Positions 34,026 through 42,424 of a stretch of DNA of 61,066 bases are shown here, in pieces. The stretch spans positions 1 through 61,066 of the forward strand of contig CAZQBL010000017.1 of assembly GCA_964592105.1 (NCBI GenBank). The letters run 5' to 3'. Source of the stretch: an uncultured Gammaproteobacteria bacterium. Lineage in GTDB: Bacteria; Patescibacteriota; Patescibacteriia; UBA10025; JAHIVO01. Numbering within the stretch: position 1 is the first letter of the stretch; each line of letters opens with the position of its first letter. Under the pieces are notes generated by a model. It made no database searches. It saw only the letters and a list, made by a program, of their open reading frames with translations, and was not told the DNA's origin. Made by a program: the position numbers and the translations under genes.

Positions 34026-35066
34026 ATGAAAATCGGCATTGTGGGACTGCCCAACGTCGGCAAGTCCACTTTATTTAAAGCCATCACCAAAAAACAGGTA
34101 GATATTTCCAACTATCCGTTTTGTACTATTGAACCAAATGTGGGCGTTGTCGCGGTCCCTGATGATCGGCTACAGAAGTTGGCAGACGTAGCTCATTCGG
34201 CAAAAATAATTCCCGTGCCGGTGACCTTTGTGGATATTGCCGGTCTGGTTAAGGACGCGCACAAAGGTGAGGGATTGGGCAATCAGTTTCTGGCCAACAT
34301 CCGCGAAGTGGACGCCATTGTTCATATTGTCCGGGCTTTTACTAATAAAGATATAATGCATGTTCATAATTCGGTTGATCCGCAACGAGATTATGAAATT
34401 ATTACCACCGAATTAGCCTTAGCCGATTATCAAACCGTGTTAAAGCGATTAGAAGGACTGGAAGGCAAAGCGCGCTCCGGCGACAAGGCCAGTCAGCGGC
34501 TGTTGGCGTTTTTGAAAAAATTGGAAATGGAATTAGGCAAAGGTATTCCTGTCCGAAAGATTGTCTTAAACAAGGAAGAATTAGAATTGATGAAAGAATT
34601 GCAGCTGTTAACCGCCAAGCCTGAATTAGTTGTCTGGAATGTTGACGAAAAAAATATGCATAATACTCCTAAGGACATTTTACCAATTGCTGCGGCCATT
34701 GAGGCGGATTTAGCCGACATGTCGGATGAGGATGCTAAACAGTTTTTGACTGAACTTGGGTGGGCAGAGCCAGGCTTGAATCGGTTGATTAAAGCATCAT
34801 TCAAATTATTGGACCTCATTGCATTTTTTACTTCAGGAGAGAAAGAAACGCACGCTTGGGCAATTTCAAGGGGCTCAACTGCACCGCAAGCCGCTGGTAA
34901 GATTCACACTGATTTCGAGAAAAATTTCATCCGGGCGGAAATTATCAGTTGGAAAGATTTTATCGAGGCCGGCGGCGAACAAAACGCTAAGACTCGCGGA
35001 TTAATGCATCTGGAAGGCAAGGATTATATCGTCCAGGATGGGGACGTTGTCTACTTTCGTATTTGA
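34026..35066 (+). CDS. ychF: redox-regulated ATPase YchF (Obg family)
   Basis: GIVGLPNVGKSTLF, YPFCTIEPN, DIAGLV, AGKIHTDF, EGKDY.VQDGDV. Confidence 0.98.
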   Translation: MKIGIVGLPNVGKSTLFKAITKKQVDISNYPFCTIEPNVGVVAVPDDRLQKLADVAHSAKIIPVPVTFVDIAGLVKDAHKGEGLGNQFLANIREVDAIVHIVRAFTNKDIMHVHNSVDPQRDYEIITTELALADYQTVLKRLEGLEGKARSGDKASQRLLAFLKKLEMELGKGIPVRKIVLNKEELELMKELQLLTAKPELVVWNVDEKNMHNTPKDILPIAAAIEADLADMSDEDAKQFLTELGWAEPGLNRLIKASFKLLDLIAFFTSGEKETHAWAISRGSTAPQAAGKIHTDFEKNFIRAEIISWKDFIEAGGEQNAKTRGLMHLEGKDYIVQDGDVVYFRI

Positions 35067-35141
35067 TTGTGGATAAGTAATGATTTATAATTATTGTCAG
35101 AGCGCTTCTTTCACACATAAAACTTTTTAGAGGAGGTATTT

Positions 35142-35315
35142 TTGGCTAAAGAAGAGGGAAACAGAACCTCAAAAAAGTTCAAAAATAAACGAGTGGTGCT
35201 ACTTACCAATGTGAAAAACTCTGTTTTGAAAATGGTTAACGGTAAGCAAGGAGGTAGTAGCAGTGGTCACTTTCTTGGTTATAATTCTTTTAAATCAGTT
35301 GTAGAAAGGAGGTGA
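35142..35315 (+). CDS. candidate 57-aa basic small ORF ending in ...VERR*
   Basis: GAGGAGG SD 5 nt before TTG 35142; open to TGA 35313-35315; below the ORF-track cutoff. Confidence 0.35.
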   Translation: MAKEEGNRTSKKFKNKRVVLLTNVKNSVLKMVNGKQGGSSSGHFLGYNSFKSVVERR

Positions 35316-35402
35316 TCAGATATCTCCTTGGGGCTTGGGTCAAAGCCCAAAATTCATACTCCAAGGTTCTGAAAGGAGGCGATTAAGTTCAGTTGATAAT
35401 AT

Positions 35403-35430
35403 TAAAGCCGGTATTTGATTACCGGCTTTT
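35403..35430. terminator. bidirectional terminator
   Basis: AAAGCCGGTA/TACCGGCTTT stem at the convergence of the ychF unit and the methylase gene. Confidence 0.7.
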
Positions 35431-36663
35431 ATATTGAAAAACGAAAATTTCTCTTTCAACTTTTTGATCCGGACGGGAATAAATAAGCGAGCCGCGGGCG
35501 GTGGGTCCGATTTTAGCGAATAAGGAAATATTTTCCGGGAAAGGATTAATCCGGCTAAACCCCATTTTTTCCAGCCGTTCCAGAATTTTTAGCGCAAAAA
35601 TGCCATGGACAGTTTTAAATAGAGGAAAAACAAAAACCAGACGTCCGCCAGGCTTGATGATGCGCGCCAGCGTCTTGAAGGCAGCCAGATACAGTGTTTC
35701 CAGTTCCTGAACCAGACTAAGCATGTTGATAATACTGATATTTTTGCTAATGGTTGGCCCAAGAAATGGTTCGGTAACGACCAGATCGACAGATTGTTTT
35801 TCAAGCAAGGTATCCAGACTGCTGACATCAGCCGTGAAGACACGAGTTGGATTTTTGCTTATTTGTCTGTTTTTTTGAAGCCAATTCAGATTGGCGATAG
35901 TGTCTGCCACGGCTTTCTGACTGATATCGCTGCCAATGACGGTGTCAATATTCATCAGAAGCGCTTCCTGTAAAATTGTACCTGAGCCGCAAAAGGGGTC
36001 TAGTATAGTCAGGCCGGGTTTGGCTCCGCCCAGATTCAACATTATTTTTGCCAGTTTAGGCGGCAACATACCGGAACGGCTGTCACGCCTGGGTCGGCCG
36101 TAGTCCCGGCCGGAATAATCCTCGAAATCCTGGACAGCCACTGTCAGTCCCAGGTAAATGTCGGACAGTCCGCAGACCACAAGTATTTCCGCACCCTGGG
36201 TCAGTAGTTTGTTTTTTATCACTTGGACGCTGGACAACGCGTCGTCTTTGGCTACGATAAAGCGACTTTTTAGCCCGCTGCGTTGCCACTCTTTTTTTAA
36301 ATGCAGTCCTAGGCTGTTGAATTTTTTGCGCTCGTGCCGGACTAAATCGCCGTACAAACTGAAACCAAAAACGATCTTTCCCTCGGATTTTCGGCCAATT
36401 TCATCCTTTAAAGAAGGCGTAGTCAGAGATTGAATGAGCTCGCTCTGGCTTTTGTATGAATTGAATATTTTGCCGATTTTCACGCAGCCACCCAGTGCTT
36501 TCTGCCAGCTCACCGCGTCAATTTCCTGGTCAGTTTTGACAATCAGGGCTTGGCTGGTCAGGTCAATGGTTTTTAAATCAGTGGACACAGTGACCTGACG
36601 ATTGAATATCTCCGCCAGAGATAAAAGGGGTGTTCTGCCTAAAATAAAGCAATATTTAGCCAT
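35419..36663 (-). CDS. Trm11/TrmG10-like RNA amino-methyltransferase
   Basis: GMLPPKLAKIMLNL, ILDPFCGSGTIL.EA, GSDIS, VTEPFLG (N6/N2-MTase motif IV-like); start at ATG 36663. Confidence 0.8.
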   Translation of the reverse strand: MAKYCFILGRTPLLSLAEIFNRQVTVSTDLKTIDLTSQALIVKTDQEIDAVSWQKALGGCVKIGKIFNSYKSQSELIQSLTTPSLKDEIGRKSEGKIVFGFSLYGDLVRHERKKFNSLGLHLKKEWQRSGLKSRFIVAKDDALSSVQVIKNKLLTQGAEILVVCGLSDIYLGLTVAVQDFEDYSGRDYGRPRRDSRSGMLPPKLAKIMLNLGGAKPGLTILDPFCGSGTILQEALLMNIDTVIGSDISQKAVADTIANLNWLQKNRQISKNPTRVFTADVSSLDTLLEKQSVDLVVTEPFLGPTISKNISIINMLSLVQELETLYLAAFKTLARIIKPGGRLVFVFPLFKTVHGIFALKILERLEKMGFSRINPFPENISLFAKIGPTARGSLIYSRPDQKVEREIFVFQYKSR

Positions 36664-40711: not shown

Positions 40712-42424
40712 TTAGACTTCAATGATAACCGGCAATACCATCGGCCGACGCTCTGTTTTGCTGAAAAGAAATGATCCGATCACATCGCGTATTTTATTTT
40801 TGATGAATGTTTCGTCGGCAGAAGTGCGGGGGTCGCGATCCTTGAGTATTTTTTTCACTTTATCACGTGTTTGGTCGAGCAGTTTTTTGTTCTCCTTCAT
40901 GTAGATAAAACCGCGCGAGATAATGTCCGGCGAATTGATTAATTTTCCTGTTTCCGCGTCAATTTTGACGATGACCACAAACATACCGTCCTCGGCCAAC
41001 ATCTGACGGTCGCGCAGCACCACATGGGAAATATCACCAACGCCCAGACCATCAACCATAACGTAACTGGTGGGGACCTTTTGATTGGTTAAATGCGGGC
41101 GTCCGTGATCAAATTCAAGTACCGAGCCGTTGTCCAGGATAAAAATATTTTCTTTACGAAATCCTTCACGGATCGCTAGTTTTTCTGCTTCTTTCAGGAA
41201 GTAATGATTGGCGTAAACGGGTAGGAAATAATCTGGCTTAACTTGTTTAAGGACAGTCGCGATATCTTCTGCTGTTCCATGACCAGAGGAGTGGATATCC
41301 ATGATATCGCTATGAACTACATTATCACTCAAGCGATATAGATTATCCTTGAGGCGTTGGATAGTTCGTTCATTTCCGGGAATGATTGATGAAGAAAAAA
41401 CAATCGTGTCGCTTTTTTTGATTTGGACAAATCGATGCTGACCGTTAACAATACGTGATAATACAGCGTTGCCCTCACCCTGAGCTCCGGTACAGATGAC
41501 AATGATTTGTTTGTCGGGATATCGGTGAATTTTATCAATGGGAATAAGCGTTTCTTTTTTTACCTTGATATAGCCGAGCTGTTTAGCAACCTCGATGTTC
41601 ATTTTCATGCTATAACCGTCCAGTGCCACCTTTTTACCAATTTTTTCAGCAAATTCCAAAATTTGTTTGATTCGTTCTATTTGTGAGGAAAAGGTACCAA
41701 TGATAATGCGTCCCGGCGCCTGACTGATCAGTCGTTGCAGATTGTTATACATGACGCGTTCAGGCACTCGTTTATTAGTGTTGGTGGCACCTAGACTTTC
41801 CAACATCAAAATGGTCGGCCGTTTGAGTTTGGCCAGTTGGTGATACTGCACTTTGCGATGACTGACCGGATCTTCTTCATACGTCCAGTCACCGGGGTGT
41901 AAAACTGTGGCATGAGGCGTTTCGATTATGATGCCAATTGCATCCATAATTGAGTGGTCAACCGGAAAGAATTTGGTCAAAAATTTTCCCAGGCGGATGC
42001 GGTCGGTAATATTACGAATTATGATGGATCGCAATTGTTTGGCCGATCCTTTTTTATGGTCCTCAAGGCGATTTTTGAGTAGGGCCAGAGTCAGTGGTCG
42101 GCCGACCACCGGTGGATAACCAAGTTGCTCCAGTAATATTGGTGCCGCTCCGATATGATCAAGGTGACCGTGAGAAAAGATAACTGCCCGGATATTTTTT
42201 TCTTTACCTTTAAGATAACAGATGTTGGGAATAATATAATCAATGCCCGGCATGTCTTCCTCGGGAAACTGTACACCCATGTCTAAAATGATAATATCCT
42301 TGTGGTATTCGAAAACCGTCATATTGCGGCCAACCTCTTCCTGTCCGCCGAGCGGAATAATGCGCAGCAGGTTGGTTTTTTTGTTTGTTTCTTGGTCTCT
42401 TTTGATTTGTTTTTTTTGAATCAT
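40712..42424 (-). CDS. rnj: ribonuclease J
   Basis: PLGGQEEVGRNM, SHGHLDHIG, HSSGHG, PVYAN, RRPMVLPVI. Confidence 0.97.
   Translation of the reverse strand: MIQKKQIKRDQETNKKTNLLRIIPLGGQEEVGRNMTVFEYHKDIIILDMGVQFPEEDMPGIDYIIPNICYLKGKEKNIRAVIFSHGHLDHIGAAPILLEQLGYPPVVGRPLTLALLKNRLEDHKKGSAKQLRSIIIRNITDRIRLGKFLTKFFPVDHSIMDAIGIIIETPHATVLHPGDWTYEEDPVSHRKVQYHQLAKLKRPTILMLESLGATNTNKRVPERVMYNNLQRLISQAPGRIIIGTFSSQIERIKQILEFAEKIGKKVALDGYSMKMNIEVAKQLGYIKVKKETLIPIDKIHRYPDKQIIVICTGAQGEGNAVLSRIVNGQHRFVQIKKSDTIVFSSSIIPGNERTIQRLKDNLYRLSDNVVHSDIMDIHSSGHGTAEDIATVLKQVKPDYFLPVYANHYFLKEAEKLAIREGFRKENIFILDNGSVLEFDHGRPHLTNQKVPTSYVMVDGLGVGDISHVVLRDRQMLAEDGMFVVIVKIDAETGKLINSPDIISRGFIYMKENKKLLDQTRDKVKKILKDRDPRTSADETFIKNKIRDVIGSFLFSKTERRPMVLPVIIEV

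What the first reader, a model, noticed from the sequence alone, without database searches (positions are those of the whole stretch)
35130..35400. SD-dense segment with a 15-nt perfect complement of the 16S 3' tail and no start codon
Seen: four AGGAGG sites in about 250 nt after ychF. A 57-aa ORF ends in GTAGAAAGGAGGTGA, and AGAAAGGAGGTGATC (35303-35317) is the exact complement of a common 16S end (GAUCACCUCCUUUCU). No start codon follows at a usable distance. Instead there is a cis anti-SD (ATCTCCTT, 35322-35329), a nested hairpin (CCTTGG/CCAAGG), and a further SD held in a loop closed by CTGAA/TTCAG. Inference: in a genome whose core genes mostly lack SDs, this could be a 30S-binding, decoy or RNA-stabilising element, or a toxin-antitoxin-like locus.
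Basis: partly seen in the sequence, partly recalled or inferred. Interest (0 to 1): 0.6.

Follow-up and report, generated by a model that had tools for sequence, protein, structure and literature searches.

The report
Small mRNA with ribosome-docking super-site
The flagged stretch is the back half of a small, unannotated messenger RNA kept just after the ychF gene across a whole class of ultra-small (CPR) bacteria. Its coding part ends at the strongest match to the ribosome's mRNA-docking tail in the genome, so it probably holds ribosomes there rather than starting a normal gene.

Summary
The four AGGAGG sites are real. TAGAAAGGAGGTGATC (35302-35317) is a 16-nt perfect complement of this genome's own 16S 3' end. 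It is the longest and strongest such site in the genome (-28 kcal/mol), and no canonical start codon follows it.

It is not a free-standing decoy RNA. It belongs to a self-contained unit of about 330 nt (promoter 35063-35091, terminator 35404-35430). The same unit follows ychF in 14 of 16 genomes of the same family and in at least 8 families of the class, including Ca. Kerfeldbacteria.

The layout is conserved:
- SD1 and a small basic protein (ORF A), mostly with a non-AUG start.
- SD2 and a coupled mini-ORF B.
- Both frames stop at or inside the super-SD (11-18 pairs in all 31 copies).
- Then usually AUAUC, a hairpin with covariation, often a fourth SD, and a terminator.

The genome is otherwise SD-poor, yet rpsU (bS21) also has a strong SD.

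Best reading: an rreB-like ribosome-tethering small mRNA. Binding and function are untested. The toxin-antitoxin and pure-sponge readings are not supported.

The scan flagged the same family earlier on another genome (e1-2071929).

The parts
35063..35091 (+). Promoter-like site: TTGATT, 17-nt spacer, TATAAT. The -35 box overlaps the ychF stop codon.
   Evidence: 10 of 12 matches. A TATAAT/TATACT box at the same place after ychF in relatives. Not mapped experimentally.
35131..35136 (+). SD1 (AGGAGG), 5 nt before the TTG start of ORF A
   Evidence: predicted duplex with the 16S tail -13.5 kcal/mol
35142..35315 (+). ORF A: 57-aa basic small protein with a TTG start. Its TGA stop is the TGA inside the super-SD.
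   Evidence: Family alignment with motif C-K..G-D.R.N-H-L-L.R. Profile hit on G000 at E 1.8e-8. Synonymous changes and an in-frame indel between close pairs. This copy is the most divergent of the family.
35247..35255 (+). SD2 (CAAGGAGGT) inside ORF A, 8 nt before the GTG of ORF B
   Evidence: -13.9 kcal/mol. SD2 is at the equivalent place in relatives, where the ORF A stop usually overlaps the ORF B start (ATGA, TAATG, GTGA).
35263..35304 (+). ORF B: 13 codons (MVTFLVIILLNQL) in the +1 frame. Its TAG stop forms the first three bases of the 16-nt complement.
   Evidence: In relatives it is 8-24 codons and the peptide is not conserved. The stop lies 0-4 nt before GGAGG, or is the TGA inside GGAGGTGATC.
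35263..35278 (+). Upstream mimic of the 16S tail (GTGGTCACTTTCTTGG) that can pair with the super-SD
   Evidence: Duplex -16.7 kcal/mol, z -4.3 against shuffles. Used in the full-length minimum-energy fold. A significant upstream partner occurs in only 5 of 31 copies, so it is not a universal feature.
35302..35317 (+). Super-SD (SD3): TAGAAAGGAGGTGATC, a 16-nt perfect complement of the host 16S 3' end
   Evidence: All 31 copies in the class have 11-18 contiguous Watson-Crick or G.U pairs. Variants GGGGG and GGTGGTC are A-to-G changes that keep pairing through G.U.
35320..35329 (+). ATATC motif (35320-35324) and cis anti-SD TATCTCCTT (35321-35329)
   Evidence: T54, T56 and C57 are invariant or nearly so in the 22-sequence alignment. 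The local fold pairs AAGGAGGUG with UAUCUCCUU. AUA lies 7 nt and AUC 9 nt after GGAGG.
35322..35372 (+). Possible ORF C: AUC start, 16 codons, TGA stop directly before SD4. Not conserved.
   Evidence: In relatives the frames opened by AUC or AUA run 1-95 codons with no shared peptide. Translation is unproven.
35326..35366 (+). Nested hairpins: outer CCTTGG/CCAAGG, inner GGGCTT/AAGCCC (35331-35348)
   Evidence: Ten other genomes (8 families) have a hairpin with loop CUAAYYC at the same relative place: 95% of cells paired, 4 of 6 pairs with compensatory changes, 0 of 500 shuffles as good. This copy has a different loop.
35371..35379 (+). SD4 (GAAAGGAGG, then C, then GAT), followed by ATT AAG TTC
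   Evidence: -20.3 kcal/mol. Relatives have GGAGGTGRTTAWSTTC 60-140 nt after SD3. Only very short or variable frames follow.
35404..35430 (+). Intrinsic terminator hairpin (AAAGCCGGTA / TACCGGCTTT) with a T run. Bidirectional; it overlaps the stop of the convergent methyltransferase gene.
   Evidence: Every related locus ends in a comparable GC hairpin plus T run. The simple scan did not list it, because its stem has few G-C pairs.

Best explanation
The segment is the 3' half of a conserved, independently transcribed small mRNA of about 330 nt. It lies between ychF and a convergent methyltransferase gene.

Shown from sequence and comparison:
- The RNA encodes a small basic protein (ORF A) behind a strong SD and a weak, mostly non-AUG start.
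- A second strong SD inside the end of ORF A drives a translationally coupled mini-ORF B. Its peptide is free to vary, but its frame and stop are kept.
- Both frames end at or inside a 16-nt complement of the 16S 3' tail.
- After that come AUAUC at start-codon distance, a cis anti-SD and structured hairpins, often a fourth SD, and a terminator.

Inferred mechanism:
- The super-SD is a docking site for the free 16S tail.
- Ribosomes finishing ORF A or B unfold the local pairing and stop right at the site. The 30S subunit, or a free 30S, is then captured by an unusually long SD-antiSD helix.
- The P site then faces a near-cognate AUA or AUC and a hairpin lies just downstream. The complex is therefore held with little or no productive initiation.
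- This matches what was shown experimentally for the 17-nt SD of the alphaproteobacterial small mRNA rreB.
- The likely outcome is ribosome-dependent control of this mRNA's own translation or stability. Occupancy of the site would report how many 30S subunits have an accessible tail.

Such control is plausible here because the genome hardly uses SDs, yet keeps strong ones on rpsU (bS21) and a few stress genes.
For: 1. The transcript unit has a promoter-like site and a terminator. The plus strand folds better than shuffles (z -4.2).
2. The same layout follows ychF in 14 of 16 same-family genomes, although YchF is only about 55% identical.
3. It also occurs in G017 (another family of the order) and G147 (another family of the class).
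4. In a sample of 401 genomes of the class, the pattern GGRGGTGRTC N0-3 WTATC gave 30 hits against 8 for the reversed control. Fifteen of the 30 lie within 1.2 kb downstream of ychF on the same strand, in 8 families. About 0.02 would be expected by chance.
5. None of 190 genomes of other classes has a ychF-linked copy.
6. ORF A is coding. It has a conserved motif, equal lengths, 5-9 synonymous codon changes per close pair and a 3-nt indel. Profile hits fall only at this locus.
7. By my reading of the loci, ORF A starts with AUG in 5 of 26 copies, against 76% AUG for crude gene starts in this genome.
8. ORF A and ORF B are coupled through overlapping stop and start codons.
9. An upstream frame stops 0-4 nt before GGAGG, or at the internal TGA, in 27 of 31 copies.
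10. The super-SD has 11-18 contiguous pairs in all 31 copies. The 16S tails were verified in the host and four relatives.
11. In G000 it is the strongest site in the genome.
12. Substitutions in the core are A-to-G changes, which keep G.U pairing on the plus-strand RNA.
13. A hairpin downstream shows covariation.
14. Precedent: rreB has a 17-nt SD and a GUG start, co-sediments with 30S, is weakly translated, and its stability depends on the start codon (PMC5711450).
15. Context: the genome is SD-poor. rpsU has SDs of -16.5 to -20.8 kcal/mol in G000 and four relatives, as in Bacteroidia, where strong SDs are read by bS21-less ribosomes (PMC9976891).
Against: - There is no expression, end-mapping or binding data. 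No RNA run holds this DNA.
- AUAUC is absent in about 5 of 31 copies.
- A significant cis partner for the super-SD occurs in only a minority of copies.
- SD4 is missing in several lineages.
- The hairpins used for the covariation count were picked by eye from 10 of 31 copies. The G000 hairpin differs in its loop.
- The G000 copy of ORF A is the most divergent and is extended.
- For rreB itself the biological function is unknown, and overexpression gave no phenotype. The analogy explains binding, not purpose.
- A very long SD could simply be an efficient reinitiation site.
Confidence: 0.55

Rival explanations
1. Ordinary polycistronic small-gene operon. SD3 and SD4 are just very good ribosome-binding sites for further tiny ORFs that start at AUC, AUA or AUU and are reached by termination-reinitiation. 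The long complementarity has no function beyond efficient coupling.
For: Stop codons sit next to the following SD three times in G000: ORF A and ORF B before SD3, and the AUC frame's TGA before SD4. ORF A itself uses AUC, AUU or ACG starts in some genomes, so near-cognate starts are used at this locus. AUC or AUA lies at a normal spacing in most copies. A second SD-dense locus in this genome (C15:10000-10450) is a plain cluster of small genes.
Against: Frames after SD3 run 1-95 codons with no conserved peptide, length or stop position. Three copies read AUC followed directly by a stop. About 5 copies have no AUAUC. Complementarity of 11-18 nt is far beyond what coupling needs, and in rreB it inhibited translation. 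A conserved hairpin begins 3-8 nt after the putative start.
Confidence: 0.2
2. A stabiliser of the STAB-SD type. 30S bound at the super-SD blocks 5'-to-3' decay by RNase J and protects the structured 3' part, which accumulates as a 3'-derived small RNA.
For: An SD without a usable start is the definition of STAB-SD (Agaisse and Lereclus 1996, from my own knowledge). RNase J is encoded in this genome. The region downstream of the site is structured and carries a covarying hairpin.
Against: The site lies about 200 nt from the predicted 5' end and behind two translated ORFs, not in a 5' leader. The 3' part is short (about 100 nt), variable in length and sequence, and matches no RNA family. The stops of ORF A and ORF B are positioned precisely at the site, which a stabiliser does not require.
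Confidence: 0.08
3. A pure 30S sponge or decoy RNA. The transcript exists to titrate 30S subunits, or their free tails, and the ORFs are incidental.
For: There are four strong SDs in 250 nt, including the strongest site in the genome. The scan has noted analogous protein-less RNAs in phages (leads only).
Against: ORF A is conserved as a protein, and ORF B keeps its frame and stop. One small RNA is unlikely to titrate ribosomes. Overexpression of rreB did not affect growth.
Confidence: 0.07
4. The functional strand is the minus strand. Read-through from the convergent methyltransferase gene would make an RNA that carries copies of the 16S tail (anti-SD mimics), which could mask the SDs of the few SD-led mRNAs.
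For: The minus strand reads GATCACCTCCTTTCTA, identical to the 16S end. The terminator is bidirectional.
Against: The conserved promoter, ORF A and the T run are on the plus strand. The minus strand folds less well (z -2.8 against -4.2). G-U pairs in the covarying hairpin and A-to-G variants in the core would be C-A mismatches on the minus strand.
Confidence: 0.02
5. A type I toxin-antitoxin locus. The hydrophobic mini-peptide ORF B would be the toxin, with its ribosome-binding site controlled by cis pairing.
For: In G000 ORF B reads MVTFLVIILLNQL. SD-antiSD hairpins resemble toxin mRNA folds.
Against: Thirteen residues cannot span a membrane. ORF B in relatives is polar or basic and unconserved, for example MKGTSSFGIMHTNNRT and MAQNSRWTLVV. 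No antisense promoter or RNA is evident. The locus is single-copy and syntenic, not mobile.
Confidence: 0.02

Closest known systems
rreB / rreR small mRNAs of Alphaproteobacteria (Hahn et al. 2016, RNA Biol 14:1353, PMC5711450)
   Same: A stand-alone small transcript with its own promoter and terminator. It has 16-17 nt of perfect complementarity to the 16S 3' end, covering bases on both sides of AGGAGG. It has a non-AUG start and part of the SD is held in a hairpin. The arrangement is conserved while the function is unknown. For rreB, 30S binding and weak translation were shown experimentally.
   Different: There is no sequence homology, and the phylum differs (Patescibacteria). Here the super-SD sits at the end of two upstream translated ORFs whose stops abut it, not at the 5' end before the only sORF. 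No canonical start follows and no conserved peptide follows. Extra SDs (SD1, SD2, SD4) are present, along with a conserved AUAUC and a CUAAYYC hairpin. The locus is fixed next to ychF. Binding is untested.
Extended SD of rpsU (bS21) and bS21-less specialised ribosomes in Bacteroidia (McNutt et al. 2023, PMC9976891)
   Same: An SD-poor genome with an intact anti-SD. Exceptionally strong SDs (below -13 kcal/mol) are reserved for very few mRNAs. rpsU of this genome and of four relatives has such an SD.
   Different: The element does not encode bS21. Occlusion of the 16S tail has not been shown in Patescibacteria. Here the strongest site has no gene behind it.
STAB-SD mRNA stabiliser of Bacillus thuringiensis cry3A (Agaisse and Lereclus 1996; from my own knowledge)
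   Same: An SD-like sequence without an associated start codon, thought to act by binding the 30S subunit. RNase J is present in the host.
   Different: STAB-SD lies near the 5' end of a long leader and protects the downstream coding mRNA. Here the site is behind the coding part and before a short structured tail.
Translational coupling by termination-reinitiation (for example overlapping ATGA junctions in operons; textbook knowledge)
   Same: The ORF A to ORF B junction is a classical overlap with the SD inside the upstream gene. Stops abut SD3, and in G000 also SD4.
   Different: The third and fourth units have no canonical start and no conserved product.

Membership tests
rreB/rreR-type small mRNA | At least 16 nt of perfect complementarity to the host 16S 3' end, spanning both sides of AGGAGG | tested here: met
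   16 nt against the host tail found on C1. Relatives have 11-18 contiguous pairs when G.U is counted.
rreB/rreR-type small mRNA | Stand-alone small transcript with its own promoter and terminator | tested here: inconclusive
   Promoter-like site and terminator hairpin are predicted and conserved in position. There is no transcript data.
rreB/rreR-type small mRNA | A conserved sORF starts directly behind the extended SD (GUG in rreB, with its first base inside the complement) | tested here: not met
   No ATG, GTG or TTG at usable spacing. The AUC/AUA frames are not conserved in length or sequence. The conserved ORFs lie upstream of the site.
rreB/rreR-type small mRNA | Sequence or structure homology to the alphaproteobacterial family | tested here: not met
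   No Rfam family matches, even at E up to 10. The host lineage is different.
rreB/rreR-type small mRNA | Preferential association with 30S subunits, and weak translation | not testable with these tools
   Needs sedimentation, toeprinting or reporter assays.
STAB-SD stabiliser | SD-like element in the 5' untranslated leader, upstream of the protected coding region | tested here: not met
   The site lies about 200 nt from the predicted start and downstream of ORF A and ORF B.
STAB-SD stabiliser | The host has a 5'-to-3' exonuclease (RNase J) | tested here: met
   TIGR00649 hit of 494 bits at window 40721-42364.
rpsU-type extended-SD autoregulation (Bacteroidia model) | SD-poor genome with an intact anti-SD, and rpsU with an SD below -13 kcal/mol | tested here: met
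   (SD use near background). rpsU SDs are -16.5 to -20.8 kcal/mol in 5 of 7 copies examined.
rpsU-type extended-SD autoregulation (Bacteroidia model) | The regulated mRNA encodes bS21 | tested here: not met
   ORF A has no Pfam or NCBIfam match. rpsU lies elsewhere, on contig C7.
Type I toxin-antitoxin | Conserved hydrophobic toxin peptide long enough to span a membrane, plus an antisense RNA | tested here: not met
   ORF B is 8-24 aa, unconserved and often polar. No antisense unit is evident.
CsrA/Rsm-type protein sponge RNA | A CsrA-family protein is encoded by the host | tested here: not met
   No PF02599 match in a genome rated 100% complete.

The most novel reading that the evidence does not exclude
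This class of Patescibacteria, like Bacteroidia, may keep the 16S tail hidden in most ribosomes. That would explain why SDs are almost absent while rpsU carries a very strong one. On this reading, the mRNA downstream of ychF is a second dedicated client and sensor of the minority of 30S subunits with a free tail. Strong SDs combined with weak, IF3-discriminated starts (UUG, AUC, AUU, ACG), plus a terminal super-SD trap, would make its output depend on the supply of free-tail 30S and on IF3. It sits next to ychF, and in E. coli YchF binds the small subunit and IF3 and tunes leaderless translation (PMC8138138). The small basic ORF A protein could then be a ribosome-associated factor.
Probability: 0.15. 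Interest if true: 0.85.

Novelty: new variant of a known kind. Interest (0 to 1): 0.6.

Why it matters
Extremely long SDs that bind ribosomes without driving normal translation are known from a single experimentally studied case (rreB), and its purpose is still unknown. Here an independent example with a different architecture is conserved across a whole class of uncultivated, SD-poor bacteria with tiny genomes. It is always placed beside the ribosome-associated ATPase gene ychF.

It gives a compact 330-nt RNA that can be tested in vitro. The questions it could answer are how terminating or free 30S subunits are captured, and whether CPR ribosomes hide their anti-SD as Bacteroidia do. It could also show what a genome that barely uses SDs still needs the 16S tail for.

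It also adds an unannotated small-protein family. Only 3 of 1.84 billion representative proteins match it, all with miscalled starts.

Tried and rejected
- **Rfam.** Nothing at gathering thresholds over the whole window, and nothing meaningful at E up to 10 over 34900-35600.
- **Similarity searches for the element.** A DNA search and a single-protein search in 40 relatives found nothing. The family is too diverged, and only synteny and a profile revealed it.
- **Word-based homology search for the 57-aa ORF.** No candidates.
- **Function of ORF A.** Pfam, NCBIfam and the ESM Atlas gave no lead.
- **Exact 29-mer scan of genome contigs.** No hit; the window's own genome is left out of that collection.
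- **Sequencing runs.** No RNA holder is listed. Four DNA runs hold the stretch or part of it, and contigs from three hot-spring runs were identical over the element, so they gave no strain variation to analyse.
- **Leaderless genes.** I looked for a peak of -10 boxes just before start codons and saw none, so I make no claim about leaderless mRNAs.
- **Universal cis anti-SD.** Only 5 of 31 copies have a significant upstream partner and 4 of 31 a significant downstream partner. I dropped this as a defining feature.
- **ORF C ending at SD4 as a rule.** True in G000 but not consistent elsewhere.
- **Extension of the complement into 16S helix 45 or the spacer.** Considered and rejected: in G000 the match stops at both ends.
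- **CsrA sponge.** No CsrA gene found.
- **Literature.** Searches on extended SDs and on CPR plus Shine-Dalgarno found no description of this element.
Full report
**1. What is in the sequence**

The flagged stretch lies between ychF (34026-35066, plus strand; YchF-GTPase_C and MMR_HSR1 domains) and a convergent RMKL-like methyltransferase gene that ends at 35419. rsmE lies upstream and rpsF (bS6) downstream.

- AGGAGG lies at 35131, 35249, 35307 and 35374.
- A 57-aa ORF (35142-35315) ends in AGG AGG TGA.
- AGAAAGGAGGTGATC lies at 35303-35317.
- ATCTCCTT follows, and the CCTTGG/CCAAGG and CTGAA/TTCAG repeats are present.

The window is contig C17 of a 1.03-Mb genome in 26 contigs, rated 100% complete. 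Earlier notes of this scan describe it as a hot-spring Patescibacteria (CPR) genome.

**2. Is it the host's own 16S tail, and is it more than chance?**

The 16S gene is split across contig ends. I found its 3' end on contig C1 as ...GGATCACCTCCTTTCTAAGGAG. The window site therefore matches the host tail over 16 nt (TAGAAAGGAGGTGATC, 35302-35317).

- It is the longest perfect complement in the genome apart from the rDNA itself. The next sites are 14, 12, 12 and 11 nt long, and most of these precede ordinary genes with ATG 5-13 nt away.
- Its predicted duplex with the tail is -28.0 kcal/mol, also the best in the genome. SD1, SD2 and SD4 give -13.5, -13.9 and -20.3 kcal/mol.
- About 5e-4 such 16-mers are expected by chance in this genome.
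- AGGAGG occurs 357 times on both strands. Four on one strand within 260 nt occurs only here and at C15:10019, which is a plain cluster of small genes.

On a crude set of 755 well-bounded starts, 8% have a duplex of -8 kcal/mol or better, against 4% of random sites. At -6 kcal/mol the figures are 12.6% against 11.6%. ychF, rpsF and rsmE have no SD.

**3. Conservation reveals a transcription unit, not a stray motif**

DNA and single-protein searches in relatives found nothing. Looking at what follows ychF did. YchF is only about 55% identical across the family, yet 14 of 16 genomes have the same layout. G005 has a gene inserted in between, and G013 has the unit on another contig.

The layout is:
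- a -35/-10 promoter directly after ychF;
- a GGAGG with a small ORF;
- a second GGAGG with a mini-ORF;
- a conserved GGAGGTGATC(C);
- hairpins;
- usually a second GGAGGTGRTTAWSTTC;
- an intrinsic terminator and the convergent methyltransferase gene.

In G000 the promoter-like site is TTGATT, 17 nt, TATAAT at 35063-35091. The terminator is at 35404-35430. The predicted RNA of about 335 nt folds better than shuffles (z -4.2 on the plus strand, -2.8 on the minus strand).

A profile of ORF A found the unit after ychF in G017 (another family of the order) and G147 (another family of the class).

I then searched a sample of 401 genomes of the class with the pattern GGRGGTGRTC N0-3 WTATC.
- It gave 30 hits, against 8 for the reversed control.
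- Fifteen of the 30 lie within 1.2 kb downstream of ychF on the same strand, in 8 families.
- About five more are the same kind of intergenic element, without ychF in the 1.5-kb flank.
- About ten lie inside genes, which fits the control.
- Two ychF-linked loci come from records named Candidatus Kerfeldbacteria.
- In 190 genomes of other classes of the phylum, none of 10 hits was ychF-linked. Two look like similar modules in another context.

**4. Anatomy**

*ORF A.* It is a real gene.
- The 42-57-aa basic peptides share C-K..G-D.R.N-H-L-L.R, and often K-G-G near the end.
- Close pairs have equal lengths, 5-9 synonymous changes in conserved codons, and one 3-nt indel.
- The profile hits only this locus in each genome.
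- It is essentially unannotated. Against 1.84 billion representative proteins only three true hits appeared, all with miscalled starts. No family matches.
- By my reading of the loci, its start is UUG in 13 copies, AUC in 4, AUU in 1, ACG in 1, GUG in 2 and AUG in 5 of 26. In this genome 76% of crude gene starts are AUG. The rule is therefore a strong SD with a weak start.

*ORF B.*
- It starts at SD2, which lies inside the end of ORF A. Its start usually overlaps the ORF A stop (ATGA, TAATG, GTGA), which is classical coupling.
- Its peptide (8-24 aa) is not conserved, but its frame is kept. G103 and G152 differ by an in-frame 9-nt indel.

*The stops.* In 27 of 31 copies an upstream open frame stops 0-4 nt before the core GGAGG, or at the TGA inside GGAGGTGATC. 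In G000 both happen. ORF B ends with the TAG that forms the first three bases of the complement, and ORF A ends at the internal TGA.

*The super-SD.*
- All 31 copies can form 11-18 contiguous Watson-Crick or G.U pairs with GGAUCACCUCCUUUCUA.
- I verified that tail in four relatives.
- The variants seen (GGGGG, GGTGGTC) are A-to-G changes that keep pairing through G.U. This argues for selection on pairing by the plus-strand RNA.

*After the core.*
- Most copies read (N1-3)ATATC. In a 22-sequence alignment, 10 columns in the core and this motif are invariant. AUA lies 6-7 nt and AUC 8-9 nt after GGAGG. Four copies have a small hairpin inserted in between.
- The frames opened by AUC or AUA run 1-95 codons and share nothing. 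Three copies read AUC directly followed by a stop. The motif is therefore conserved at the RNA level, not for a protein.
- A hairpin follows, with loop CUAAYYC in ten genomes of 8 families. On these, 95% of cells pair, 4 of 6 pairs show compensatory changes, and 0 of 500 shuffles do as well. I chose these hairpins by eye, so the count is biased upward.
- In G000 the equivalent is GGGCTT/AAGCCC nested in CCTTGG/CCAAGG.

*Cis partners of the super-SD.* They exist in G000: upstream GTGGTCACTTTCTTGG (z -4.3) and downstream TATCTCCTT. They are not universal.

**5. How it most likely works**

*Shown:* the layout, its conservation, the coding status of ORF A, the coupling geometry, and the complementarity.

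*Inferred:* ribosomes translating ORF A and ORF B open the local structure and terminate exactly at the super-SD. The 30S subunit, or a free one, is then held by an unusually long helix with the 16S tail. It faces a near-cognate AUA or AUC and a downstream hairpin, so initiation is poor.

This is what was measured for rreB of Bradyrhizobium. That RNA has a 17-nt complement and a GUG start, localises to the 30S fraction, and is weakly translated. [quoted passage not shown]

The purpose is open here, as it is for rreB. I favour ribosome-dependent self-control of this small mRNA.

**6. Context that makes it more interesting**

- In this SD-poor genome, the few strong SDs belong to hsp20, an MscS-like membrane protein, a radical-SAM/SPASM gene and two unknown genes. 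rpsU also has one.
- The rpsU leader reads AGGAGGTGA, then 8 nt, then UUG (-16.5 kcal/mol). rpsU of four relatives has -17 to -21 kcal/mol, mostly with GUG.
- That is the signature described for Bacteroidia. There the tail is buried by bS21, bS18 and bS6, and strong SDs are read by ribosomes lacking bS21 (PMC9976891).
- infC appears to start with AUU, as in E. coli, so start discrimination by IF3 is probably active.
- E. coli YchF contacts the small subunit and IF3 (PMC8138138).

None of this proves a link, but it defines the most novel reading.

**7. Alternatives**

- A plain chain of coupled mini-genes is possible (0.2). It does not explain the length of the complement, the unconserved frames or the hairpin.
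- A STAB-SD-like stabiliser does not fit the position of the site, although RNase J is present.
- A pure sponge ignores the conserved coding part.
- A minus-strand anti-SD mimic is contradicted by the promoter, ORF A and the G-U pairs.
- A type I toxin is contradicted by ORF B's length and variability.
- A CsrA sponge is excluded by the lack of a csrA gene.

**8. Novelty**

I found no description of this element in Rfam or in the literature searches. The scan flagged the same family earlier after ychF on another genome (e1-2071929), and that follow-up reached a similar reading.

New in this report:
- the class-wide distribution;
- the stop-at-SD geometry;
- the AUAUC motif and the covarying hairpin;
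- the wobble-preserving variants of the core;
- the ranking of the site within its genome;
- the rpsU parallel.

I file it as a new variant of the rreB kind. It works alike, but it is not a member of that family: the defining sORF behind the SD and any homology are missing.

Noticed in passing
G000 contig C7, about 151602-151650 (minus strand; locus L114); also L117, L118, L119, L120: rpsU (bS21) carries an exceptionally strong SD (AGGAGGTGA or similar, -16.5 to -20.8 kcal/mol) and mostly GUG or UUG starts, in this SD-poor genome and in four relatives of the class. This is the signature of bS21 autoregulation through tail-exposed ribosomes described for Bacteroidia. I found no report of it for Patescibacteria.
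   Followed up: partly
window 35009-35050 (last ~42 nt of ychF); locus L041 (G005); loci L081 and L066: Laying metagenome contigs showed that the 3' end of ychF recurs, with about 6 mismatches, in unrelated contigs. Depth there is much higher (149-654 against 56 or less for the host contig), with unlike flanks on both sides. In G005 a 289-aa gene sits between ychF and the element, and a second copy of the ychF tail (...QDGDVIYFRI*) precedes the element. G152 and G274 also have insertions there.
   Followed up: partly
G000 contig C15:10000-10450 (locus L101): This is the only other locus in the genome with four AGGAGG sites in 260 nt. It is a run of small ORFs, each behind a strong SD, after a TTGACA/TATAAT promoter and next to a divergent gene. 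It may be a mobile or phage-like small-gene cluster.
   Followed up: no
G000 contig C7:103296 (locus L112): infC (IF3) has no ATG, GTG or TTG before the conserved N-terminus. The frame opens with ATT AGC AAA AAT..., so it probably uses an AUU start as in E. coli. No SD precedes it.
   Followed up: partly
G000 C8:18012 (hsp20), C15:32502 (MscS-like), C26:3767 (radical SAM/SPASM), C14:28664 and C5:5983 (no family): The strongest SDs in front of real genes in this SD-poor genome belong to stress or accessory genes rather than housekeeping genes.
   Followed up: partly
loci L086 (a MAG labelled Eubacteriales), L104 and L105 (other Patescibacteria classes), L077 (G229): A minimal version of the module occurs elsewhere, away from ychF. 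An ORF stops at or in GGAGGTGATCC, then comes (N)ATATCT, then directly a hairpin or terminator. Three copies read AUC followed by a stop codon (a start-stop pair).
   Followed up: no
G000 C13:22 and C8:540: The identical 24-mer AGAAGAGAAGGGAGGTGACAGCGT lies near two contig ends. This suggests a repeat, or that the two contigs overlap.
   Followed up: no
locus L088 (record labelled uncultured Gammaproteobacteria): Over the ~480 bases compared (element and flanks), this record is identical to the locus of G199, a genome placed in the same Patescibacteria class. The public label is probably wrong.
   Followed up: no
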